From an uncultured Desulfobacteraceae bacterium (GTDB taxonomy: Bacteria; Desulfobacterota; DSM-4660; Desulfatiglandales; JALVMZ01): DNA of 60,905 nt. This document shows, one piece after another, positions 38,143 to 48,075 of the stretch. Below the pieces are notes generated by a model that saw only the letters and a program-made list of their open reading frames with translations, did not search any database and was not told where the DNA came from. The translations under genes and the position numbers were made by a program. The DNA lies in assembly GCA_964440775.1 (NCBI GenBank), contig CAYTXJ010000001.1, positions 1-60,905 of the forward strand, written 5' to 3'. Each line of letters opens with the position of its first letter. Within the stretch, counting starts at the first letter, position 1.

Positions 38143-38547
38143 ATGGATATCACTCTATATGATAGGGATGGAAACCCCATTGCCTATATCTCAGATGACT
38201 ATGAAAGCAATATATACTTCTTTGAAGGGGAGGCTGTGGCATATCTGTTTAATGAAAGTGAGGTATATGGCATAAATGGAAGAGCTCTTGGTTGGTTTAT
38301 AGATGAGGTCCTATATGATAGCAATGGATTGAGGATAGGGTTTACCTATAATACATGTCCTAAGAGTTGTGCAAAGGAGCCTATAAAGTCAAAGAGAAAG
38401 CCTATCTATGAGAAGAGACCAAGATCGAAGCCGCCACCAATGCCCAAGTTTAGTTATGCGATATCTTCTATCCCTTTAAAAGAGTTTCTTCTTCAAGGGA
38501 AGATAGAGAAGATAATGGTAAGGGAAGAGGAAAAGTCGGAATCATAG
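38143..38547 (+). CDS. Small conserved hypothetical with four tandem beta-hairpin-like repeats (possibly 4-fold beta-flower family) and a Lys/Pro-rich tail
   Basis: 134 aa with four repeats: LYDRDGNPIAYI, IYFFEGEAVAYL, VYGINGRALGWF and LYDSNGLRIGFT. A GGAAGGTGAG SD precedes it, and its stop abuts the polA ATG (TAGATG). The family name is from memory. Confidence 0.55.
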   Translation: MDITLYDRDGNPIAYISDDYESNIYFFEGEAVAYLFNESEVYGINGRALGWFIDEVLYDSNGLRIGFTYNTCPKSCAKEPIKSKRKPIYEKRPRSKPPPMPKFSYAISSIPLKEFLLQGKIEKIMVREEEKSES

Positions 38548-41220
38548 ATGAAAGAAGAGAGGGAGACAGTCTATTTAGTTGATGGAAGCTCATATATATA
38601 TAGGGCATACCATGCAATAAGGGAGCTATCCACCTCCAAGGGGCTTCCCACAAATGCAATCTTTGGCTTTACCAAGATGCTTTTGAGGCTCTATCAAGAT
38701 AAGACCCCGTCCTATCTTGCGATTGTATTTGATGCACCTGGCCCCACATTCAGACATAAGATATATGAAAGATATAAGGCAACGCGTCCTCCAACCCCTG
38801 AAGATCTTACCGAACAGATACCCTATATAAAAAAGATAATTGAGGGATTTAGAGCAAGGATGCTGGAAATTGAGGGCTATGAAGCAGATGATATTATAGG
38901 TACAGTCGCTAAGATTGCTACAGAAAGAGGATTTTATGTGGTGATAGTTTCAGGAGATAAGGACTTTCGCCAGCTTATAACAGATAGGATCTCCATGTGG
39001 GATCCTATGAAAGACAGGATAGTCGATTGTAAGAGTATTGAGGAAGAATATAGAATAAGGCCTCAGCAGTTTATAGATGTGATGGCACTATGTGGGGATC
39101 GCATTGACAACATTCCTGGTGTTCCCTCCATAGGTGAAAAGACGGCCTTAAAGCTAATAAGAGAATTTGAGACTCTGGAGAATATCTATGAGAATATCTC
39201 AGACCTTAAGAAAAAGAGTCTTAAGGAAAGATTAATAGAATTTAAAGAGAATGCATTTTTGAGCAGGGAGCTTGTAAAGATCAATACCCGTGTTCCTGTA
39301 GAGATAGATTGTGAAGAGCTAAAAGTTAAAGAGCCAGATAAAGATAGGCTATCTGAGATATTTAAGGAGCTTGAATTTATAAGTCTTTGGAATCAATTTG
39401 CAAAGAAAAAGGCAGAAACTGATAAGGACTATAGGATATGTAATGACAAGAGGTCCTTTAGAGAACTGATTTCAGAAATAAAGAAAAAGGGGATTGTTTC
39501 CATTGACACCGAAAGCACAAGTGAGGATCCCATGAGGGCTGAGCTTGTCGGGATCTCTCTATCTATGGAAAAGGACAAGGGTATCTATATCCCAGTTGCC
39601 CATAAGGTGAAAGATAGGCAGCTGGATAGAGACTATGTCATAGGTGGATTTAAGGAGGTGATAGAAGATCCTAATATAAAGAAGATAGGCCAGAACATAA
39701 AATATGATGCCTTGATCTTTAAAAGGCTCAATATGGATATAAAAGGCATCTATTTTGATACAATGGTGGCCTCCTATGTGATAAATCCGGGGCTGAGACA
39801 GCACAATCTAAATGTGCTTGCCCAGCAATACCTCAACTATAAGATGATCTCTTATAAGGAGATCGTAGGAGGGGGGAAAGAGACATTTGCTGATGTGGAT
39901 CTGAAAAGTGCAAAGGAGTATGCATGTGAAGATGCAGAGGTGGTATGGAGGCTTTGGCCCATATTGGATGAGAAACTCCATAAAGAGGGTAATGCTTCTC
40001 TGTTTTATGAACTGGAGATGCCGCTCATTGAGGTGCTTATGGATATGGAATATAGTGGGGTCAAGATAGATGAGGAATTTTTTAAAGATATGTCAATTAG
40101 GATATCCAAGGAACTATCAAAGTTGGAAGAGGAGATATTTGAAGAGGCAGGCATGGAATTTAATATCAATTCTCCTCAGCAGCTCGGTTTTGTGCTTTTT
40201 GAAAAGCTTAAACTCCCAGTTCAGAAAAAGACCACAAAGACCAAGAGCTATTCAACAGATGTTAGGGTATTAGAGACATTATCTTCACTAAACTATAAAC
40301 TCCCATCACTTATATTAAGATATAGGAGTCTATCAAAGTTAAAGTCCACCTACTTAGATTCCCTATTGCAGATGATAAATCCTGAAACCGGCAGGATTCA
40401 TACCTCATTTAATCAGACGGTGACAGCAACAGGAAGGCTCAGTAGCAGTAATCCCAATCTTCAGAATATCCCCATAAGGGGAGAGGAAGGAAGAGAGATA
40501 AGGAAGGGATTTATCGCGGATGAGGGCAATCTTCTGCTGTCTGCGGACTACAGCCAGATAGAGTTGAGGATATTTGCCCACTACTCTCAAGATCCAGGAT
40601 TTATAAATGCCTTTAGAGAAGGAATTGATATACACACTAAGACCGCCTCTGAAATACTGGGGGTGGATATGGACAAGATCACATATGATATGAGGAGGAT
40701 TGCCAAGGCAATTAATTTTGGGATAATCTATGGAATGGGGCCTCTAAAGCTAAGCCAAGAGTTACATATTGACAGAAGAGAGGCCCAGAGATATATAGAG
40801 AGCTATTATAAGAGATATAAAGGTGTATTAAGATACAGAGAGCAGATGATTGATATGGCACGAAAGAGAGGATATGTCACCACCCTCTTTAACCGAAAAC
40901 GCTATCTGCCAGGGATCAATCACAGCAAGGCCAGGATCAGGGCAGAGGCAGAGAGGATGGCAATAAATACACCCATTCAGGGAACAGCCGCAGACCTGAT
41001 AAAAAAGGCAATGATAGATATCCACAGAAGACTAAAGGAGAAGAGATTAAAGACAAAATTAATTCTACAAGTCCATGACGAACTCGTATTTGAAGTCCCT
41101 GAGTCCGAATTGGAGGAGGTAAAGGAGGTGGTCTTGAAGGAGATGGAAGGTGTGTATCCCTTAAGTGTTCCTTTGAGAGTGGATATAGGAGTTGGAAGGA
41201 ACTGGGGGGATACGCACTAA
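38548..41220 (+). CDS. polA: DNA polymerase I (5'-nuclease, 3'-5' exonuclease and polymerase domains)
   Basis: 890 aa with polymerase motifs DYSQIELRI and QVHDELVFE. Confidence 0.97.
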   Translation: MKEERETVYLVDGSSYIYRAYHAIRELSTSKGLPTNAIFGFTKMLLRLYQDKTPSYLAIVFDAPGPTFRHKIYERYKATRPPTPEDLTEQIPYIKKIIEGFRARMLEIEGYEADDIIGTVAKIATERGFYVVIVSGDKDFRQLITDRISMWDPMKDRIVDCKSIEEEYRIRPQQFIDVMALCGDRIDNIPGVPSIGEKTALKLIREFETLENIYENISDLKKKSLKERLIEFKENAFLSRELVKINTRVPVEIDCEELKVKEPDKDRLSEIFKELEFISLWNQFAKKKAETDKDYRICNDKRSFRELISEIKKKGIVSIDTESTSEDPMRAELVGISLSMEKDKGIYIPVAHKVKDRQLDRDYVIGGFKEVIEDPNIKKIGQNIKYDALIFKRLNMDIKGIYFDTMVASYVINPGLRQHNLNVLAQQYLNYKMISYKEIVGGGKETFADVDLKSAKEYACEDAEVVWRLWPILDEKLHKEGNASLFYELEMPLIEVLMDMEYSGVKIDEEFFKDMSIRISKELSKLEEEIFEEAGMEFNINSPQQLGFVLFEKLKLPVQKKTTKTKSYSTDVRVLETLSSLNYKLPSLILRYRSLSKLKSTYLDSLLQMINPETGRIHTSFNQTVTATGRLSSSNPNLQNIPIRGEEGREIRKGFIADEGNLLLSADYSQIELRIFAHYSQDPGFINAFREGIDIHTKTASEILGVDMDKITYDMRRIAKAINFGIIYGMGPLKLSQELHIDRREAQRYIESYYKRYKGVLRYREQMIDMARKRGYVTTLFNRKRYLPGINHSKARIRAEAERMAINTPIQGTAADLIKKAMIDIHRRLKEKRLKTKLILQVHDELVFEVPESELEEVKEVVLKEMEGVYPLSVPLRVDIGVGRNWGDTH

Positions 41221-41234
41221 GAGGGAGATGAATT

Positions 41235-42149
41235 ATGAAATATGTATTTGGGCCTGTCTTTTCAAGGCGATTGGGGCTCTCCTTAGGAATAGACATAATC
41301 CCATATAAGACCTGTTCTTATGACTGCATATATTGTGAGGTTGGAAGGACAACCTGTAAGAGTGTGGATACAGATTCATTTGTGGATCTAAATGAGCTGT
41401 TTTCAGAGATATCCATTGCATTAAGGGAGAGTAATCCTGAAGTTCTCACATTTTCAGGATCAGGTGAACCTACCTTAAATCAGGATCTGGGTGAGATGAT
41501 TAGAAGGTTAAAAAAAATGACAGAGAAGAAGATAGCCGTGCTTACCAATGGTTCCCTGCTCTATAAAGACGAGATAAGGGAAGCGGTAAAGGCAGCAGAT
41601 ATATTAATGCCTACCCTTAGCTCTGTATATGAAAAGACATTTGTTAAGATCCATAGACCTCATAAGTATCTTAAGATTAATAGGGTGATTGAGGGAATCA
41701 AGAGATGCAGAGATGAATTTAGGGGTGAGTTTCAGCTTGAGGTGATGATAGTAAAAGGTATCAATGACAATATGAAGGAGATAAGTGCTCTAAAGGAGGT
41801 AGTGGATGAGATAGAGCCTGATAGTATCCAGTTAAATACAGTGGTTAGGCCACCTCCTAAAGGTCTGGATCTCAGGGTAGAAGAGGAAAAGATGGGAGAT
41901 ATTGCCAGGGTATTTGGCAAAAAGGCAGAGGTTATATCCTATAGAGGGCAGAGAAAGGGGGAAGCTCATCTTTTAGACATAGAGCGTAAGATTGTGGAGA
42001 TGGCAAAGAGAAGACCCATCAGGGTAGAGGATATTGAATATCTATTCAAGGGTGAAAAAGAGATTAAGGGTGTGTTAGAAGGGCTTATAAGGCATAAGAG
42101 GATATGGAGATACAGATATGGAGATAACATATTTTTTAAGTCCATATAG
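41235..42149 (+). CDS. Radical SAM protein, function unknown
   Basis: 304 aa with C27-x3-C31-x2-C34 (CSYDCIYC) and the glycine-rich SAM motif FSGSGEPTL. Confidence 0.8.
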   Translation: MKYVFGPVFSRRLGLSLGIDIIPYKTCSYDCIYCEVGRTTCKSVDTDSFVDLNELFSEISIALRESNPEVLTFSGSGEPTLNQDLGEMIRRLKKMTEKKIAVLTNGSLLYKDEIREAVKAADILMPTLSSVYEKTFVKIHRPHKYLKINRVIEGIKRCRDEFRGEFQLEVMIVKGINDNMKEISALKEVVDEIEPDSIQLNTVVRPPPKGLDLRVEEEKMGDIARVFGKKAEVISYRGQRKGEAHLLDIERKIVEMAKRRPIRVEDIEYLFKGEKEIKGVLEGLIRHKRIWRYRYGDNIFFKSI

Positions 42150-42167
42150 AAAGAAGGAGTGGAAGAT

Positions 42168-45100
42168 ATGAGAGAATTATATGTAGGGATAGATATAGGT
42201 TCTGTAAGTATCAATTGCCTTGTCCTGGATCAGCACAAAAACATTGTTCATGAATATTCATATATGAGGCATTTTGGAGCAATAGAGGAGAGGGTGCATT
42301 CCCTTTTAAGTGATATATTTGAGCGGTTTGGAAGAGGTGAGATAAGAGCAGTTGCATTCACTGGCAATCATGGAAGGAAGATAAGTGAAAATGTAGGGGG
42401 ATTTTACGAATTTGATACTATATCCCAGGTCTTAGGCTCCCTTTATGTAAAACGAGATGTGAGGTCCATAATCAGCATGGGCGGACAGGATACAGCCCTT
42501 TTCCAGATAAAGCACAGGGATGGCAGTTGGGAGCTGGAATACTTTAATACCAATGGGCCATGTGCATCGGGGACAGGCTCTTTTATAGATCAACAGGCTC
42601 AAAGGCTTGCCACCTCTATCTATAAAAGAGATGTGGATCTATCTCAGGAGCAGATAGATAGTGTCCTCAAAGATTTTATTGAGTTGGGACTTAAAAGCAC
42701 AAGGCCTTCCAATGTGGCCTGCAGATGCACTGTGTTTACTAAATCTGATATGATTCATCTTCAAAACAAGGGTGAGAAGCTTGAAGATATCATATATGGG
42801 CTTCATATCGGAAATGCCAGAAACTTTATCAGCACCATTGTCGCAAACAGGCGGGTTGAAGATCCAGTGATATTTATAGGGGGTCTTTCCCTTAACCAGC
42901 TTCAGGTAAAGGCATTTAAGGAATATTTCTCCAATATCCTTGTTCCCCCCCATAGCACCTCCATAGGAGCCTTAGGGGTTGCAATACATGCTATGGAGCA
43001 GGGAGTTGAAAATTCCATTGATTTAGATGGGCTTTTAAGACTGGGAAGGGTGCAGCTATCCAATCTTCCAATTGCTCCCAGACTAAAGCTCAAATTGACC
43101 CGCTTTCCTGAAGAGAATGAGGTAGAAAAGGTGCCATTTCACGGGACTGTGCCCGTATATCTGGGTGTGGATATAGGATCCACTACCACAAAATATGCAA
43201 TTATAGATGAACATAGAAGAATAATACATAAAAGATATGTCCACACCCAGGGAAGACCTGTAGAGGTGACACAGAAATTGCTGAGCATCATAAGGGATGA
43301 GATAGGAAGACGGATTGATATTAAGGGGGTTGCCACTACAGGATCTGGAAGAAATGTGGTAGGGGATTTTTTAAACGCTGATCTCATTGTGGATGAGATA
43401 ACTGCCCATGCAAGGGGTGCTGTAGAGATTGATCCCACAGTTGATACCATCTTTGAGATAGGGGGTCAGGATTCCAAATATATCTATATAATGAATACAT
43501 ATCCTCTGGATTTTGATATGAATAAGGTCTGTGCTGCAGGAACCGGCAGCTTTCTCCATGAGCTTGCAAATAAGTATGGGATAAACATAGTGGGAGAGTT
43601 TCAGGAGATAGCCATGTCATCCCCCTCTCCTATACGGCTTGCTGAAAGATGCACCGTGTTTATGGAATCTGACCTTGTATCATATCATCAAATGGGTGTG
43701 GAAAAGAGAAATCTGATAGCAGGACTCTGCTATGCAATTGTAAGTAACTATCTTAACAGGGTGGTGGGAAAGCGAAAGATCGGAGAGAGGATCATGTTTT
43801 TGGGAGGCCCTTCTCTTAATAAAGCGGTGGTGGCTGCCTTTGAAAATATCTTAAATAGGGCAATTATTGTCCCAAAGCACAGAGAGGTGCTTGGTGCATT
43901 TGGGGCAGCGATTCTGGTTCAGCAAAAGATGAGAAGGGAAGGCAAAAAAGAAAGCAGATTCAGGGGACTGGATAGCGCCATTAATGACAGAATGGAATAT
44001 AAAGAGGTGATATGTAGGGCAGATCCCAAATGCCATAATCAGTGTAAACTTAAGATCTACAATTTTGATGGAAGAAAGAGTATATGGGGTGGAGAGTGTG
44101 GAAGATATGAGATAAGTGAGAGAAGGGCAAAGAGAAGCCCCAACTATTTCAAACTGAGGTCTCAGATATGGGAAAGATATATGGAAGGGGTATATGTGGA
44201 ATTCAATGGGGAGAGGATCTTAGAGGTGGACGGAAGATCTACTGTTGGTATGCAAAGGGCCCTCTACACACTTCATACAGGAGTCTTATGGGCACATTTT
44301 TTTGACAGATTGGGTCTCAGGGTGGTATTAACCCCACCTACCAATTCCCGAATTGTGGCCTGGGGGATAGAATCTATGACAGCAGAGACCTGTTTTCCAG
44401 TGAAGATCTCCCATGGACATATAAGATATATCAAAGATAAGACCAGATTTCTCTTTATTCCTTCAATCATTAATATGAGAACACCCACAGAAAATGAAGC
44501 CGGGTTTTATTGTCCAATGGTTCAGGCAAATCAGTATATGGTGAGGATGGCATTCAATCTAAAGGGAGATAATATACTAAATCCTATAGTTCACCTTAAA
44601 TATGAGCCTGAAAGGCTTGCAGTTGAACTTACCTCACAATTGTCCCACAAGATTGGAAAGAGCAAAAAAGATATAAGGGATGCACTGATCTATGCCTTAG
44701 AGATACAAGAAGAATTTACAAAAGAGCTTCTAAGAGAAGGGGAAAAGATCCTCTCTTCATATCCCAATGATAAACCGCTGGTTATTGTAACGGGAAGACC
44801 ATACAATCTATATGATGAAAGGCTAAATCTCAGACTGGGTGAAAACCTATCAAAGATAGGGGTAAGTGCCCTGCCTATGGATTTTATAGATACCAGCAGG
44901 GTGGATCTTTCTGATTTTTCATCCATGTATTGGGGGTTTGGGTCAATGATCCTTAGAGCTGCAAGATATATTGTATCGAGTGAAAATCTCTTTGGAATAC
45001 ATGTCACAAATTTCAGCTGTGGAGCAGATTCTTTTATTGAACATTTCTATAAATACATCATGCAAGACAAACCCTATCTCATCCTGGAGCTGGATGAACA

Positions 45101-45212
45101 CTCAGCAGTTGCAGGTATTATGACAAGGCTTGAGGCATACAGAAATGTGGTTGAAAACTGTATGGAAAAGGCCAAGGAGGGATTTCAAGAGCTTAAAATC
45201 TCTAATTACTAA
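42168..45212 (+). CDS. Fused double BcrAD/BadFG/HgdC-type activase ATPase plus C-terminal dehydratase/reductase-related domain
   Basis: The ATG at 42168 has a GAAGGAG SD; the track GTG is at 42159. Two actin-fold ATPase modules start at GIDIGSVSIN and GVDIGSTTTK. Each has paired cluster-Cys motifs: CASGTGSF/CTVFTKSD and CAAGTGSF/CTVFMESD. A Cys-rich linker (CRADPKCHNQCK...CGRYE) and a roughly 350-aa C-terminal domain follow. Confidence 0.8.
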   Translation: MRELYVGIDIGSVSINCLVLDQHKNIVHEYSYMRHFGAIEERVHSLLSDIFERFGRGEIRAVAFTGNHGRKISENVGGFYEFDTISQVLGSLYVKRDVRSIISMGGQDTALFQIKHRDGSWELEYFNTNGPCASGTGSFIDQQAQRLATSIYKRDVDLSQEQIDSVLKDFIELGLKSTRPSNVACRCTVFTKSDMIHLQNKGEKLEDIIYGLHIGNARNFISTIVANRRVEDPVIFIGGLSLNQLQVKAFKEYFSNILVPPHSTSIGALGVAIHAMEQGVENSIDLDGLLRLGRVQLSNLPIAPRLKLKLTRFPEENEVEKVPFHGTVPVYLGVDIGSTTTKYAIIDEHRRIIHKRYVHTQGRPVEVTQKLLSIIRDEIGRRIDIKGVATTGSGRNVVGDFLNADLIVDEITAHARGAVEIDPTVDTIFEIGGQDSKYIYIMNTYPLDFDMNKVCAAGTGSFLHELANKYGINIVGEFQEIAMSSPSPIRLAERCTVFMESDLVSYHQMGVEKRNLIAGLCYAIVSNYLNRVVGKRKIGERIMFLGGPSLNKAVVAAFENILNRAIIVPKHREVLGAFGAAILVQQKMRREGKKESRFRGLDSAINDRMEYKEVICRADPKCHNQCKLKIYNFDGRKSIWGGECGRYEISERRAKRSPNYFKLRSQIWERYMEGVYVEFNGERILEVDGRSTVGMQRALYTLHTGVLWAHFFDRLGLRVVLTPPTNSRIVAWGIESMTAETCFPVKISHGHIRYIKDKTRFLFIPSIINMRTPTENEAGFYCPMVQANQYMVRMAFNLKGDNILNPIVHLKYEPERLAVELTSQLSHKIGKSKKDIRDALIYALEIQEEFTKELLREGEKILSSYPNDKPLVIVTGRPYNLYDERLNLRLGENLSKIGVSALPMDFIDTSRVDLSDFSSMYWGFGSMILRAARYIVSSENLFGIHVTNFSCGADSFIEHFYKYIMQDKPYLILELDEHSAVAGIMTRLEAYRNVVENCMEKAKEGFQELKISNY

Positions 45213-45224
45213 TAGGAAGGAACA

Positions 45225-46568
45225 ATGGAAAAGGACTTTAAAGAGCTTTACCAGAGGGTTGGATATTTCAAGGTAAAGGGCAAGACATTTCTGATACCCC
45301 AGATGAACACTATAGGGGGGCATCTGTTGGCAGGCACATTGAGAAGCTTTGGTGTAAATGCCATACTGATGGATACTTATAAGGGATTGGATCTGGGTAA
45401 GAATTTTACCTCTGGAAAGGAGTGTTTCCCATGTCAGGTAACCACAGGTGATATACTCTATTTCCTAAAGAGGGAAAAGGAAAGACTCGGTGATAGATTT
45501 AATCCTAAAGACTATATATATTTTATGCCAGAGTCAGAGGGGCCCTGTAGATTTGGAATGTATAATAAGTTTCAGAGGATAGTCTTAGACACCTTTCCAG
45601 AATTTAGGAAGATAAAGATTGGCACCCTTTCATCCAGCAATTCCTATTCCGTAGAAGGCCTGATAGAAGAGGCAGGTGAGTTCAGAAAAGTGGCATATCT
45701 ATCTGTTATTGTAGGGGATATATTGGATAGGCTACTCTGGAGAGTAAGGCCTTATGAAAAGATAAAGGGCTCTACAGATCAGTTTATTCATTATGCAACT
45801 TTAAATATGGAAAAGGCCTTTGAAAGATATGGAAAGAAGAAGGATTTTGATAGCATTATCTCTCAGCTTGAAGAACTCACTCAGGAGGCCAAATCCCTGA
45901 TAGATCCTACAATCTCTCCTAAACCGCTGATAGGCGTTGTAGGAGAGATATATCTTAGGACCCATGTTTGGTCCAATCAGAATGTGATAAGGATGATTGA
46001 GAGATATGGAGGAGAGGTGGTAAATGCATCAATTGCTGAATGGATAAATTATACCACATATGATAGACTCAGGGAGGCAAAGATTGACCTGAGGGCATAC
46101 ATCAGAAATTTTAATATTGAAGGGATAAAGGATTCATTTAAGAGAATACTCAAGTATGGGATTGATCTCTACTACCAGCAGATAAAACAGGATAAGGTCT
46201 ATAAGAGAATAAAAAAGATTCTGGATATTGCAGATGATCACAGATTGAAGGACTTAGAGAAGGTTCTCATCAGGACAGGAACCTTTTCATTTGATGTTGG
46301 AACAGAGGCATGCCTTAGCATCTCTGGAATTATTGAATATATAAAAGAGGGATACAATGGTGTTGTAAATGTCTATCCCTTTACATGTATGCCAAGCACC
46401 ATAACCTCAGCTATAATTAAGCCTATTATCACTAAGACCAATGTGCCCTACATAGACGCCCCATATGACGGATCATATCAGCCAGGCAGAGAGGCGGCAA
46501 TTAGAACCTTTATGTATCAGGCACAACAGCACTTTGAAAGGAATAGGGGAAGGAGAAGGCATCATTGA
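45225..46568 (+). CDS. Partner subunit related to acyl-CoA dehydratase/activase-associated proteins
   Basis: 447 aa with conserved Cys contexts GKECFPCQ, GPCRFGMYN and YPFTCMPS. An AGGAAGGAA SD precedes it, 12 nt after the previous gene. Confidence 0.6.
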   Translation: MEKDFKELYQRVGYFKVKGKTFLIPQMNTIGGHLLAGTLRSFGVNAILMDTYKGLDLGKNFTSGKECFPCQVTTGDILYFLKREKERLGDRFNPKDYIYFMPESEGPCRFGMYNKFQRIVLDTFPEFRKIKIGTLSSSNSYSVEGLIEEAGEFRKVAYLSVIVGDILDRLLWRVRPYEKIKGSTDQFIHYATLNMEKAFERYGKKKDFDSIISQLEELTQEAKSLIDPTISPKPLIGVVGEIYLRTHVWSNQNVIRMIERYGGEVVNASIAEWINYTTYDRLREAKIDLRAYIRNFNIEGIKDSFKRILKYGIDLYYQQIKQDKVYKRIKKILDIADDHRLKDLEKVLIRTGTFSFDVGTEACLSISGIIEYIKEGYNGVVNVYPFTCMPSTITSAIIKPIITKTNVPYIDAPYDGSYQPGREAAIRTFMYQAQQHFERNRGRRRHH

Positions 46569-46596
46569 ATATCCCTACCCAAAGATTCATAACACG

Positions 46597-48075
46597 ATGA
46601 GTAAAAAGATTCTTATTGATGCGAGTCAGAAGGAAGAGTTTAGGGTCGCAATTGTTAAAGACGGCATATTGGAAGACTTTTATATACAGACCCTGTCTTT
46701 AAGGCAGAAAGTTGGGAATATCTACAAGGGTATTGTGGAAAACATTGATCATAGGCTTCAGGCATGTTTTGTAAACTTTGGCCAGAAAAAGAACGGCTTT
46801 CTCCCCACAGAAGAGATACATCCCCAATATTGGGCAGTTTCAGATAATAAGGATATTCCCATTGACATGAGAATACAGAAAGGACAGGAGGTCTTGGTTC
46901 AGGTTGTAAAAGATATGCCAGGAGAAAAGGGTGCGTATCTTACGACCTATGTAACCCTTGCAGGAAGATACATGGTATTAACCCCTGGAAGGGATACAAT
47001 AGGGGTTTCTCGTAAGATAGAAGATGAAAAGGAGAGAAAGAGACTTAAGAGAATTGCCACGACCCTTCCCCTTCCCTCCTATATGGGATGCATCATGCGG
47101 ACCGCCTCTGAAGGTATAAGAAAGAGGGAGATATTAAGAGAACTGAACAGGCTTTTAAGACTATGGACACAGATTAGAGAGAGGGCCAAAAGGGGGCCGT
47201 CTGTGACATTGATCCATGAAGAGCAGGATATATGTTTTAGGACCCTAAGAGACCACTATAGCCGTGATATAGATGAGATTTGGGTGGATGATACAGGTCT
47301 ATATAAGAGGCTGAAGCAATATATGAAGATACTCTCTCCGAGGGATCAGAAAAAGATAAGGCTGTATAAGGAAGATATACCCATATTTGATAGATACAAT
47401 ATTGAGGATCAGATAGAGAGAATATATAGCAGGAGGGTGGATCTTAGAAGTGGAGGATATATTGTTGTAGATTCTACAGAGGCATTGATTGCCATAGATG
47501 TAAACTCTGGTAGCACCATTGCAGGAGAAAACAGGGAATCTATGGCCTTTATCATAAATATGGAGGCAGCCAAGGAGATCCCCCGACAGCTAAGGCTGAG
47601 AGATATAGGAGGATTGGTGGTTATAGATTTCATAGATATGAAGCAAAGAGAACATATAAGAGATGTGGAAAAGAGAGTAAGAGAGGAGATAAAAAAGGAC
47701 AGGGCAAAGGTGGAGCTATCCCGAATATCCAAATTTGGTCTGATGGAGCTATCCCGTCAGAGGCTAAATCCATCGATAGAGCTTAAAAGCTATCAGGTAT
47801 GCCCTACCTGCAGAGGAAGGGGTAAGGTAATATCAGTGGAATCTGCCTCTGCGTCTATATTGAGAAATATAAAATCCATTGCCTCAAAAGGGGGAGTAAA
47901 AGAGGTTGTGGCAACCCTTCCACTGGATGTGGCTTCCTACATATTGAATGCCCAGAGAAAGGAGTTACTTAATATGGAAGAGAGATTTAATATGAAGATC
48001 ATAATACAGGGCAATGAAAAGATAGGCTCTGGAGAAAGCCATATCGATTTCATCAGATCAGATCAGATCATATGA
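46597..48075 (+). CDS. rng: Ribonuclease G/E-family endoribonuclease
   Basis: The internal ATG at 46597 (MSKKILID...) was chosen because the track ORF start at 46465 overlaps the previous gene by 104 nt. It has an S1 domain (GNIYKGIVENI...ACFVNFG) and the catalytic domain. Confidence 0.9.
   Translation: MSKKILIDASQKEEFRVAIVKDGILEDFYIQTLSLRQKVGNIYKGIVENIDHRLQACFVNFGQKKNGFLPTEEIHPQYWAVSDNKDIPIDMRIQKGQEVLVQVVKDMPGEKGAYLTTYVTLAGRYMVLTPGRDTIGVSRKIEDEKERKRLKRIATTLPLPSYMGCIMRTASEGIRKREILRELNRLLRLWTQIRERAKRGPSVTLIHEEQDICFRTLRDHYSRDIDEIWVDDTGLYKRLKQYMKILSPRDQKKIRLYKEDIPIFDRYNIEDQIERIYSRRVDLRSGGYIVVDSTEALIAIDVNSGSTIAGENRESMAFIINMEAAKEIPRQLRLRDIGGLVVIDFIDMKQREHIRDVEKRVREEIKKDRAKVELSRISKFGLMELSRQRLNPSIELKSYQVCPTCRGRGKVISVESASASILRNIKSIASKGGVKEVVATLPLDVASYILNAQRKELLNMEERFNMKIIIQGNEKIGSGESHIDFIRSDQII

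What the first reader, a model, noticed from the sequence alone, without database searches (positions are those of the whole stretch)
41235..46568. Radical SAM + fused double-activase + partner subunit trio embedded between polA and rng
Three tightly spaced genes, with gaps of 9-18 nt, sit in an apparent polA...rng operon.
- **Gene 1** is a 304-aa radical SAM protein with CSYDCIYC.
- **Gene 2** is a protein of about 1014 aa with two tandem HgdC/BcrAD-type ATPase modules. Each has the paired cluster cysteines (CASGTGSF/CTVFTKSD and CAAGTGSF/CTVFMESD). A CxxxxxCxxxC...C linker and a dehydratase/reductase-related domain follow.
- **Gene 3** is a 447-aa Cys-containing partner with ECFPC, GPCRFG and FTCMPS.

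This is the architecture of ATP-driven low-potential electron-injection enzymes of the benzoyl-CoA reductase / 2-hydroxyacyl-CoA dehydratase superfamily. Here the activator is fused in as a pseudo-dimer.

The anaerobic plasmalogen synthase PlsA/PlsR described in Clostridium perfringens belongs to this superfamily and also has fused activase domains. An ether-lipid role is therefore one testable hypothesis.

I do not recognise the adjacent radical SAM gene as a described partner of such enzymes. The linkage to replication and RNA-decay genes is also unusual.
Basis: partly seen in the sequence, partly recalled or inferred. Interest (0 to 1): 0.6.

Follow-up and report, generated by a model that had tools for sequence, protein, structure and literature searches.

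The report
Split ether-lipid reductase with radical-SAM neighbour
An uncultured sulfate-reducer relative carries a two-gene, ATP-driven iron-sulfur enzyme of the family that anaerobes use to turn ester membrane lipids into ether lipids, and the small radical-SAM gene beside it proves to be a recurrent, undescribed, optional neighbour of this branch of the family.

Summary
The window holds three tightly packed genes:
- a 304-aa radical SAM protein (41235-42149);
- a 1014-aa double-activase + DUF2229 protein (42168-45212);
- a 447-aa partner (45225-46568).

The partner has no Pfam hit, but its model matches only BCR/HAD catalytic subunits.

All 14 cluster cysteines are invariant, including in the verified Ger of Desulfatibacillum alkenivorans and in Listeria-type PlsA. 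The pair therefore belongs to the PlsA/PlsR-Ger lipid-ester-reductase family. It forms its own split clade (28-30% identity to the verified enzymes). This clade is present in all 41 genomes searched in its order. I found no report of an assayed member.

The polA link is order-level synteny. The rng link is wider but uninformative.

The radical SAM link is real but optional:
- It flanks the reductase in 24 of 56 informative split-clade species.
- It flanks 20 fused relatives in other families, upstream or downstream, with otherwise unrelated neighbours.
- It was never seen beside Ger, Ger2 or PlsA-type genes.

Its role is unknown. The "wyosine synthetase" label fails the test.

The most likely function of the pair is anaerobic ether-lipid synthesis, with the radical SAM protein as an accessory. 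This scan flagged the same trio earlier on other genomes.

The parts
38548..41220 (+). polA (DNA polymerase I, 890 aa); upstream context gene, not part of the module
   Evidence: 50-63% identical orthologues sit directly upstream of the rSAM or of A across the order. polA is absent upstream in other orders that keep rSAM-A-R.
41235..42149 (+). Radical SAM protein, 304 aa, of the family that JGI labels 'wyosine synthetase'. It has an N-terminal FGPVxSRRLGxSLGxD motif, a partial TIM-barrel core and a C-terminal winged helix.
   Evidence: PF04055 65 bits; no NCBIfam model reaches its cut-off. AF2 model pLDDT 89.5. Foldseek gives only generic radical SAM cores: viperin-like, NifB, TYW1, PFL-AE. 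SD GAGGGAG lies 7 nt before the ATG.
41313..41336 (+). CxxxCxxC radical SAM cluster motif (C27, C31, C34)
   Evidence: Invariant in 65 aligned homologues. These are the only invariant Cys in the protein.
41979..42143 (+). C-terminal winged-helix domain of the rSAM (residues 249-303) with invariant R259-R260-P261
   Evidence: Secondary structure of the model is H249-259, H264-270, H277-286, E290-295, E298-303. Some homologues carry a precomputed PF01978 hit.
42168..45212 (+). Subunit A (1014 aa from ATG 42168; 1017 aa if GTG 42159). It contains two HgdC/BcrAD-type ATPase domains, a 4-Cys linker and a DUF2229 catalytic half.
   Evidence: PF01869 twice (207 bits) and PF09989 (173 bits). TIGR00241 280 bits. 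Activase domain 2 matches PDB 4eht, 1hux, 9gai and 7yyl. Homologues of ~70% identity occur in thousands of metagenome proteins.
42177..43013 (+). Activase-like ATPase domain 1 (cluster Cys C135, C190; numbering from GTG 42159)
   Evidence: First of the two PF01869 stretches. C135 and C190 are invariant in all 44 family members compared.
43158..43928 (+). Activase-like ATPase domain 2 (cluster Cys C458, C498)
   Evidence: PF01869 residues 335-586. 4eht_A E = 2e-33. Both Cys are invariant.
44013..44099 (+). Four-Cys linker C619-x5-C625-x3-C629-x17-C647, a probable relay Fe-S site
   Evidence: All four Cys are conserved in the split, fused1, Ger2, Ger and PlsA groups. That it binds a cluster is an inference.
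44241..44888 (+). DUF2229 domain, the first HgdA/B-like catalytic half (Cys C745, C785; C954 lies just downstream)
   Evidence: PF09989 residues 695-910. The three Cys are invariant. Their spacing resembles that of the 3-Cys [4Fe-4S]-OH2 site of BzdO (PMC11971306).
45225..46568 (+). Subunit R (447 aa), the second HgdA/B-like catalytic half (PlsR-equivalent), with Cys C67, C108 and C388
   Evidence: No Pfam, NCBIfam or PDB sequence hit. AF2 model pLDDT 88.3. The 14 Foldseek matches with E <= 0.001 are all DCCP, HadBC, BzdNO or MbdON chains, probability 1.0. It is 23-31% identical to the C-terminal ~400 aa of Ger, Ger2, Listeria PlsA and fused1 proteins.
46597..48075 (+). rng (RNase G/E family, 492 aa from ATG 46597); downstream context gene
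   Evidence: It follows R in nearly all split-clade loci and in two fused1 loci. The start is inferred from homologue lengths and the sequence.

Best explanation
**What it is.** Genes 2 and 3 encode one oxygen-sensitive enzyme of the PlsA/PlsR-Ger family.

**Proposed mechanism (inferred by analogy).**
1. A low-potential donor reduces a [4Fe-4S] cluster held between the two fused HgdC-like ATPase domains of A (2 + 2 Cys).
2. ATP hydrolysis drives that electron, probably via the 4-Cys linker site, to two 3-Cys [4Fe-4S] sites.
3. One site lies in the DUF2229 half of A and one in R. Together these halves form an HgdA/HgdB-like pseudo-heterodimer.
4. There the sn-1 acyl ester carbonyl of a membrane glycerophospholipid is reduced through a ketyl-type radical to an ether.
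5. The product is a vinyl ether (PlsA-like) or, more likely in this phylum, a saturated 1-O-alkyl ether (Ger-like).

**The pair's place in the family.** It is a distinct, vertically inherited split clade. I found no report of an assayed member.

**The radical SAM gene.** It belongs to a widespread family of unknown function: one cluster, a SAM core and a winged helix. Its most recurrent neighbour is this reductase clade and its fused sister clade. I read it as an optional accessory of the same pathway, either tailoring the lipid or supporting the reductase. It is not needed for the core reaction.

**Other neighbours.** polA and rng are synteny neighbours.

**Shown versus inferred.** Shown here: architecture, Cys set, fold, clade structure and gene linkage. 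Inferred: substrate, product, electron path and any role of the rSAM.
For: **Family membership**
- Domains.
- The R model matches only BCR/HAD catalytic subunits.
- 14 Cys are invariant across the split, fused1, Ger2, Ger and PlsA groups.
- The A+R order is collinear with verified enzymes:
  - D. alkenivorans Ger SHJ90043, identified by exact look-up: A 30%, E = 2e-124; R 26%.
  - Listeria PlsA: A 28%; R 25%.
- Ger and PlsA are experimentally verified lipid ester reductases (PMC13159169, PMC11150832, PMC12838417, PMC9702350).

**Clade structure**
- The split clade is monophyletic (support 100) and related to fused1.
- fused1 holds the only family member found in each of eight of the nine sampled Thermodesulfobacteriaceae-like genomes. 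PMC8788747 describes Thermodesulfobacterium geofontis, a member of that family, as producing ether lipids but not plasmalogens.
- The pair is present in 41 of 41 genomes searched in the order.

**rSAM linkage**
- Adjacent in 24 of 56 informative split loci.
- Adjacent in 30 of 150 listed family loci among 301 phylum genomes.
- Adjacent to 20 fused1 genes, upstream with overlap or downstream, with otherwise unconserved flanks.
- It persists where polA is absent or the neighbourhood is rearranged.
- Genome co-occurrence is 134/172 against 60/129 (not corrected for relatedness).
Against: - No member of the split or fused1 clades has been reported as assayed in the literature searched.
- The pair is only 28-30% identical to verified enzymes, and the deep branching order is unstable between methods.
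- D. alkenivorans Ger2, another family member, gave no ether lipids when expressed alone (PMC11150832). Membership therefore does not guarantee activity.
- No lipid data exist for this MAG. None were found for cultured carriers such as Desulfacinum or Thermodesulforhabdus.
- No lipid-synthesis genes flank the locus.
- The rSAM is absent beside the pair in 32 of 56 species.
- Most rSAM family members are unlinked, and linked and unlinked copies interleave in the tree.
- Listeria, reported to make plasmalogens when grown anaerobically (PMC9702350), has no family member on its chromosome.
Confidence: 0.6

Rival explanations
1. The radical SAM gene is functionally unrelated to the reductase. It would be a housekeeping enzyme of anaerobes, for example in RNA or cofactor modification, that merely shares an ancestral operon position or anoxic co-expression with it.
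For: - The family occurs in 194 of 301 phylum genomes and is mostly unlinked.
- It is present in half of the genomes with no reductase hit (41/82).
- It is missing beside the pair in 32 of 56 species.
- Linked and unlinked copies interleave.
- The window's other neighbours (polA, rng, rny) are plainly synteny.
- The C-terminal winged helix with invariant RRP could bind nucleic acid.
Against: - It is the only gene that stays next to the reductase when all other flanks change.
- It is seen in two orientations and in both the split and the fused forms.
- Start/stop overlaps occur in several loci.
- It stays with A-R through rearrangements that remove polA or invert rng.
- Unlinked copies have no other consistent partner.
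Confidence: 0.3
2. The radical SAM protein is a maturase or repair factor for the Fe-S centres of this reductase clade. It would be a stand-alone NifB-like core acting on the clusters of A and R.
For: - NifB is among the best structural matches (7jmb, E = 1e-10).
- Unlinked members of the family sit next to NifX-like (Nitro_FeMo-Co) proteins, a Mrp/NUBPL-NifX fusion and MinD-ferredoxin ATPases. An rSAM core plus a NifX-like domain are, from my own knowledge, the two halves of NifB.
- The superfamily uses unusual clusters such as [8Fe-9S] (PMC7317905, PMC11971306).
Against: - The rSAM has only the three SAM-cluster Cys conserved, so it has no sites for substrate clusters.
- A and R offer 3 + 3 Cys, which fits two open-site [4Fe-4S] clusters like that of BzdO. 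It does not fit a 6-Cys double cubane.
- BzdNO assembles its clusters in E. coli without such a factor (PMC11971306).
- Ger and PlsA are active in E. coli (PMC13159169, PMC12838417).
- The Foldseek scores for viperin, TYW1 and PFL-AE are equally good.
- The NifX-type context was seen in only about 3 lineages.
Confidence: 0.15
3. The A-R pair of this clade does not act on membrane lipids. It would be an ATP-driven reductase or dehydratase for another carbonyl or unsaturated substrate, as in the DCCP and YjiL/YjiM-type enzymes of the same superfamily.
For: - It forms a separate clade on a long stem (0.8-0.9 substitutions per site).
- It has clade-specific extra Cys (A-C188, R-C70).
- It co-exists with Ger2-like fused paralogues in some genomes of the order, which would fit divergence of function.
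- Ger2 was inactive alone (PMC11150832).
- There are no lipid genes nearby.
- Conservation is unusually high (about 70% across the order).
Against: - It keeps the full architecture and Cys set of the two verified lipid enzymes, which lie on different branches of the tree.
- Most genomes hold only one family member.
- The related fused1 clade is the only member found in most sampled relatives of Thermodesulfobacterium, a lineage that produces ether lipids (PMC8788747).
- Known non-lipid relatives (HAD, BCR, DCCP) have separate activases and no DUF2229 fusion.
Confidence: 0.2

Closest known systems
Ger, glycerol ester reductase (Desulfatibacillum alkenivorans SHJ90043; Thermotoga maritima Tmari_0479)
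   Same: - Same phylum in the case of D. alkenivorans.
- Same domain order: two BcrAD_BadFG domains, a 4-Cys linker, DUF2229 and a second HgdB-like half.
- All 14 Cys are conserved.
- A is 30% identical over about 900 residues; R is 26% identical to the C-terminal part.
- ATP-driven anaerobic chemistry is expected.
- The saturated alkyl ether product is typical of sulfate reducers.
   Different: - Ger is one fused polypeptide of 1458 aa. Here there are two genes (1014 + 447 aa).
- They fall in different clades.
- No rSAM lies next to ger or ger2.
- D. alkenivorans lacks the split type.
- Activity here is untested.
- The T. maritima enzyme could not be placed in my tree.
PlsA/PlsR anaerobic plasmalogen synthase (Clostridium perfringens CPE1194/1195; fused PlsA of Listeria, Enterococcus, Lactococcus)
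   Same: - Two-gene split in C. perfringens (literature only; its sequence was not obtained here) and in Fusobacterium (975 + 404 aa), the same layout as here.
- Same domains and the same Cys set as the Listeria, Fusobacterium and Collinsella proteins compared.
- Belongs to the BCR/HAD family (PMC12838417).
   Different: - Only 28% (A) and 25% (R) identity.
- The PlsA-type proteins form a distant, long-branched clade.
- The split here arose independently within the Desulfobacterota lineage, so R is not an orthologue of PlsR.
- The PlsA product is a vinyl ether.
- No rSAM neighbour was seen, and Listeria has none in its chromosome.
Fused 'fused1' clade of Thermodesulfobacteriota (e.g. Thermodesulfobacterium geofontis 'modified PlsA', Ca. 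Desulfofervidus auxilii AMM42271)
   Same: - Nearest relatives outside the split clade: 38% identity for A and about 30% for R.
- The same rSAM family is directly adjacent in 20 genomes.
- rng follows in two of them.
   Different: - Single polypeptide of about 1390-1470 aa.
- The rSAM can be upstream or downstream.
- No published assay was found. Support is organism-level only: Thermodesulfobacterium makes alkyl ethers.
2-hydroxyacyl-CoA dehydratases, class I benzoyl-CoA reductases and DCCP (HadBC/HadI, BzdNOPQ/MbdONPQ, DCCP/DCCP-R)
   Same: - Activase ATPase fold (E = 2e-33 to 4eht).
- The fold of R matches their catalytic subunits.
- 3-Cys open-site cluster pattern like that of BzdO.
   Different: - Those systems have separate activase subunits, CoA-ester or small-molecule substrates, and no DUF2229 fusion or 4-Cys linker.
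- Identity is 9-13% in the structural alignments.
TYW1/Taw1, PFL-activating enzyme, NifB and viperin (structural neighbours of the rSAM)
   Same: - Partial TIM-barrel radical SAM core.
- N-terminal CxxxCxxC motif.
- TM-score 0.55-0.7.
   Different: - No NCBIfam model comes near its cut-off. For example TYW1 scores 31 against 318, PFL-AE 29 against 232 and MoaA 52 against 284.
- No auxiliary-cluster Cys.
- It carries a C-terminal winged helix that, as far as I know, these enzymes lack.

Membership tests
PlsA/PlsR-Ger lipid ester reductases | Two tandem BcrAD_BadFG (HgdC-like) ATPase domains in one chain, each with two cluster Cys | tested here: met
   PF01869 twice. C135/C190 and C458/C498 are invariant, including in Ger and Listeria PlsA.
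PlsA/PlsR-Ger lipid ester reductases | DUF2229 (PF09989) reduction domain fused after the ATPases | tested here: met
   173 bits against a cut-off of 29.4, residues 695-910.
PlsA/PlsR-Ger lipid ester reductases | Second HgdA/B-like half (PlsR, or the C-terminal ~400 aa of fused forms) | tested here: met
   R aligns with the C-termini of Ger, Ger2, Listeria PlsA, the Fusobacterium R subunit and fused1 (E = 5e-19 to 2e-52). Its fold matches DCCP, HadBC and BzdNO.
PlsA/PlsR-Ger lipid ester reductases | Shared set of Fe-S ligand cysteines (4-Cys linker plus 3 + 3 catalytic Cys) | tested here: met
   All ten, plus the four activase Cys, are conserved in the split, fused1, Ger2, Ger and PlsA groups.
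PlsA/PlsR-Ger lipid ester reductases | Orthology with an experimentally verified member (same clade as PlsA or Ger) | tested here: not met
   It forms a separate monophyletic clade. Ger, Ger2 and the PlsA-type proteins branch elsewhere, and the deep order is unresolved.
PlsA/PlsR-Ger lipid ester reductases | Converts the sn-1 ester to a vinyl or alkyl ether; the organism contains ether lipids | not testable with these tools
   The genome is an uncultured MAG. No lipid data were found for cultured carriers.
BCR/HAD radical enzyme superfamily | HgdC-type activase fold plus an HgdA/B-type catalytic subunit fold | tested here: met
   Activase: 4eht, 1hux and 9gai, E = 2e-33 to 6e-32. R model: 7yyl, 3o3m, 8s02 and 9g87, probability 1.0.
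TYW1/Taw1 wyosine synthase (the JGI label of the rSAM) | Scores above the TIGR03972 cut-off; second (auxiliary) cluster | tested here: not met
   31.5 bits against 318. Only three invariant Cys.
Glycyl-radical activating enzymes (PFL-AE type) | Scores above TIGR02493/TIGR02494; glycyl-radical enzyme partner | tested here: not met
   29 bits against 232, and 21 bits against 174. No glycyl-radical enzyme was recognised among the neighbouring ORFs. The structural similarity is generic.
Tes/Mss membrane-spanning lipid synthases (lipid radical SAM) | Scores above the NF045702 cut-off; large multi-domain rSAM of about 500 aa | tested here: not met
   31 bits against 450. No hit above the cut-off anywhere in the genome.
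NifB | Extra Cys/His ligands for the K-clusters and a NifX-like domain | tested here: not met
   No auxiliary Cys are conserved, and there is no Nitro_FeMo-Co domain. Some unlinked relatives do sit next to NifX-like proteins.

The most novel reading that the evidence does not exclude
The small winged-helix radical SAM protein and the fused1/split reductases form a two-enzyme ether-lipid module.

The radical SAM partner would either change what the reductase makes (for example second-position or dialkyl ethers, or a radical modification of the alkyl chain) or be needed for its activity in vivo.

This would be a new radical SAM function. It could also bear on why some family members, such as Ger2, are silent when expressed alone, although Ger2-type genes themselves were never found next to this rSAM.
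Probability: 0.3. Interest if true: 0.7.

Novelty: new variant of a known kind. Interest (0 to 1): 0.45.

Why it matters
Non-isoprenoid alkyl glycerol ethers are widely used biomarkers for sulfate reducers and seep communities. They also bear on the "lipid divide". Only a handful of the enzymes that make them have been tested.

This work makes three points:
- The dominant versions in Thermodesulfobacteriota (the fused1 clade and the split clade seen here) lie outside the clades of the verified PlsA and Ger enzymes.
- The split form is a core gene of the order, which record titles suggest is Desulfatiglandales. It is also present in Syntrophobacterales-like lineages.
- An uncharacterised radical SAM family travels with these two clades.

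That yields a concrete, cheap experiment: express the reductase with and without the rSAM. Cultured sources are named for each configuration:
- Desulfacinum (split pair with rSAM);
- Thermodesulforhabdus (split pair without rSAM);
- Ca. Desulfofervidus auxilii (fused gene with rSAM).

If the rSAM proves irrelevant, the finding reduces to an ordinary untested member of a known family.

Tried and rejected
**Searches that gave nothing**
- Sequence searches of R against Pfam, NCBIfam and the PDB, both single-sequence and profile, found nothing. Only the fold search worked.
- hhalign of the R profile against the DUF2229 part of A was not significant. The paralogy of the two halves rests on:
  - the matching Cys triads and their spacing;
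  - weak DUF2229 hits in the R-type parts of relatives.
- No Tes/Mss-type lipid rSAM is present in the genome.

**Ideas tested and dropped**
- Sub-threshold HGD-D (PF06050) hits as a marker separating Ger-like from PlsA-like architecture. This was inconsistent: verified Ger itself gave none in my scan.
- A correlation of clade-specific extra Cys (A-C188, R-C70) with rSAM linkage. None was found.
- The TYW1 label of the rSAM, rejected on score.
- A double-cubane or NifB-type maturation idea. This is weakened by the 3 + 3 Cys pattern and by BzdNO assembling in E. coli.

**Sources not available**
- The supplement of PMC13159169 (table of strains and Ger homologues) is not held.
- Jackson et al. 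2021 is not held.
- A 'COG0731' literature search found nothing.
- I could not obtain the C. perfringens PlsA/PlsR or T. maritima Ger sequences. Listeria and Fusobacterium proteins (from mislabelled 'plasmid' records) and D. alkenivorans Ger and Ger2 served as references.

Full report
**1. The observation**

Three co-directional ORFs lie at 41235-42149, 42159/42168-45212 and 45225-46568.

Pfam and NCBIfam results:
- Gene 1 is a radical SAM protein (PF04055) with no specific family.
- Gene 2 has two BcrAD_BadFG ATPase domains plus DUF2229.
- Gene 3 matches nothing.

Details of starts and gaps:
- Gene 2 probably starts at ATG 42168. A GAAGGAG sits 8 nt upstream, and the database call is 1014 aa.
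- Each gene has its own Shine-Dalgarno sequence. The gaps are 14, 18 and 12 nt.
- The rng ORF as listed overlaps gene 3. Homologues are 491-503 aa, so rng probably starts at 46597.
- No terminator-like site lies on the + strand from 38143 to 48075. This is compatible with one transcript but does not prove it.

**2. The partner subunit R**

R gave no hit by sequence, even as a profile against the PDB.

An AlphaFold2 model built on 45 homologues is confident (pLDDT 88.3, pTM 0.89). Its 14 Foldseek matches with E <= 0.001 are all catalytic subunits of the BCR/HAD superfamily, at probability 1.0 and TM-score 0.38-0.53:
- DCCP;
- HadB/HadC;
- BzdN/BzdO;
- MbdO/MbdN.

R therefore is the second HgdA/B-like half, with an extra helical insertion.

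**3. Family membership**

Reference sequences came from two sources.
- Two fused proteins of genome G079 are, by exact look-up, SHJ90043.1 and SHK01260.1 of Desulfatibacillum alkenivorans. SHJ90043.1 is the verified glycerol ester reductase Ger. SHK01260.1 is Ger2, which was inactive alone (PMC13159169, PMC11150832).
- Listeria, Fusobacterium, Collinsella, Acetoanaerobium and Subdoligranulum proteins came from plasmid-collection records. Listeria is accepted as carrying a functional PlsA orthologue (PMC9702350).

Pairwise identities:

| Reference | A | R vs C-terminal part |
|---|---|---|
| Ger | 30% | 26% |
| Ger2 | 29% | 23% |
| Listeria PlsA | 28% | 25% |

Fourteen cysteines are invariant in every group:
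- 2 + 2 in the ATPase domains;
- four in the linker;
- three in the DUF2229 half;
- three in R.

The 3-Cys spacing resembles the open-site [4Fe-4S]-OH2 cluster of BzdO (PMC11971306).

**4. Clade structure**

Trees of A+R were built with IQ-TREE quick (38 and 45 rows) and FastTree (64 rows). They show:
- The window-type split pair is monophyletic (support 100).
- A large fused clade, here called 'fused1', has support 98.
- A Ger2 group includes the extra fused paralogues found in some genomes of the window's own order.
- There is a separate Ger group.
- There is a long-branched PlsA-type group.

The order of the deep branches differs between methods and is not resolved.

The split clade is thus a member of the family, but it is not an orthologue of any assayed enzyme. 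Because verified lipid reductases sit on different deep branches, lipid ester reduction is the parsimonious ancestral function. A change of function along the long stem (about 0.9 substitutions per site) cannot be excluded.

**5. Distribution**

- The pair is in 41 of 41 genomes searched in the order. Record titles name Desulfatiglandales and Desulfatiglandaceae MAGs among them.
- It is the only family member in the window's genome.
- Outside the order it occurs in related lineages, including cultured Desulfacinum hydrothermale, D. infernum and Thermodesulforhabdus norvegica, and a Desulfosoma MAG.
- Most other genomes of the phylum carry fused1 instead.
- fused1 includes the single family member found in eight of the nine sampled genomes of a family whose protein is 79-80% identical to those of Thermodesulfobacterium geofontis and T. 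hydrogeniphilum.
- PMC8788747 describes T. geofontis as producing ether lipids but not plasmalogens, and it named a 'modified plsA' there.
- Monoalkyl ether phospholipids are reported for Desulforhabdus amnigenus (Rutters 2001, cited in PMC5552659). From my own knowledge this species belongs to the Syntrophobacterales. I could not check which gene type it carries.

Together this favours a saturated alkyl ether product over a plasmalogen, but only weakly.

**6. polA and rng**

- Across the order the block rny-(small ORF)-polA-[rSAM]-A-R-rng-M48 peptidase is conserved. The polA adjacency is therefore synteny.
- Outside the order polA is not upstream, but A-R-rng persists.
- Two fused1 genes are also followed by rng.
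- I found nothing that makes this link functional.

**7. The radical SAM gene**

Linkage:
- Within the split clade it lies directly upstream of A in 24 of 56 informative species-level loci and is absent in 32.
- It remains with A-R where polA is absent or rng is inverted (L102, L147, L150, L157, L062, L066, L067, L048).
- In a sample of 301 phylum genomes, 30 of 150 listed family loci have it on the same strand within 6 kb.
- Fetching 20 of these loci showed it immediately upstream, often overlapping the start codon, or immediately downstream in one family. All 20 are beside fused1 genes, and no other gene is conserved around the pair.
- It was not seen beside Ger, Ger2 or PlsA-type genes.
- The Listeria chromosome has no family member.

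Distribution of the family:
- It occurs in 194 of 301 genomes and is mostly unlinked.
- Linked and unlinked copies interleave in its tree.
- It is present in 134 of 172 genomes with a split or fused1-like reductase and in 60 of 129 others. The odds ratio is about 4, and the test is not corrected for relatedness.

The linkage is therefore real and recurrent, but facultative.

**8. What the radical SAM protein is**

- Sources call it 'wyosine synthetase'. It scores 31 bits against a TYW1 cut-off of 318, and no NCBIfam model comes close to its cut-off.
- The model (pLDDT 89.5) is a standard partial-barrel core plus a C-terminal winged helix with an invariant RRP motif.
- The best structural neighbours are viperin-like enzymes, NifB, TYW1 and PFL-AE, all at about 17% identity. 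This does not discriminate between functions.
- Only the three SAM-cluster Cys are invariant.
- Unlinked relatives sit in varied contexts. These include a Mrp/NUBPL-NifX fusion, and a MinD-ferredoxin ATPase with a NifX-like protein and DUF134.
- That context prompted a maturase hypothesis. The absence of auxiliary ligands, and the fact that Ger, PlsA and BzdNO work in E. coli, weaken it.
- No paper in the library links a radical SAM of this kind to plsA or ger.

**9. Verdict**

The pair is an untested, clade-level new member of the PlsA/PlsR-Ger family and most likely an ether-lipid-forming reductase (confidence about 0.6).

The radical SAM gene is a previously undescribed, optional companion of the split and fused1 clades, and its role is open.

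The same trio was flagged several times earlier in this scan on other genomes. One follow-up reached the same family assignment. I treated those notes as leads only.

Noticed in passing
window 46465-48075: The longest rng ORF starts at 46465 and overlaps gene 3 by 104 nt. Orthologues are 491-503 aa, so the real start is probably ATG 46597. There is no obvious Shine-Dalgarno sequence in front of it.
   Followed up: partly
window 38143-38547: A 134-aa ORF abuts polA (TAG then ATG). It has 43-92% identical counterparts upstream of polA in many, but not all, genomes of the order.
   Followed up: partly
L057/L070 (G015) and L060/L061 (G183): Two genomes carry two copies of the split A-R pair. G015a (L057), G015b (L070) and G183a (L060) show no polA, rng or rSAM nearby. 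G183b (L061) keeps rng downstream but has no rSAM.
   Followed up: partly
L039-L042 (G003, G020, G035, G023): Some genomes of the window's order also hold a fused ~1400-1470-aa paralogue. Three of the four group with D. alkenivorans Ger2, the family member that was inactive alone in E. coli. The fourth (L042) falls on a long branch at the base of fused1.
   Followed up: partly
L031 (G015:C3) and L197 (G216:C109): Unlinked relatives of the rSAM lie beside a MinD-type ATPase with ferredoxin insert, a NifX-like (Nitro_FeMo-Co) protein and DUF134, or two genes from a Mrp/NUBPL-NifX fusion. This is a split NifB-like context in organisms where no nitrogenase genes were seen in the stretches examined.
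   Followed up: partly
L182, L183 (G255, G291): rSAM, a fused1 reductase and rng occur in the same order as in the window. The rng linkage may therefore predate the fission of the reductase gene.
   Followed up: no
L172, L174 (G148, G115): An ORF whose N-terminus looks like FabD (malonyl-CoA:ACP transacylase; recognised by eye, not run against Pfam) lies directly upstream of the rSAM-fused1 pair. This is the only possible lipid-synthesis neighbour seen.
   Followed up: no
G000:C96:6556-8207 (L004, L005): The window's genome has two adjacent stand-alone activase-like genes. One has an in-frame TGA, which could be selenocysteine, a frameshift or an assembly error. Further single activases lie on C56 and C70.
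   Followed up: no
W02 (Fusobacterium vincentii NZ_CP084075.1) 2087692-2088540: A member of the rSAM family with an internal TAA lies about 0.68 Mb from the split PlsA-type genes of that record.
   Followed up: no
PLSDB records NZ_CP030101.1, NZ_CP084075.1, NZ_CP154629.1: Records of 2.1-2.9 Mb labelled as plasmids are evidently chromosomes. They were useful here as named reference genomes.
   Followed up: no
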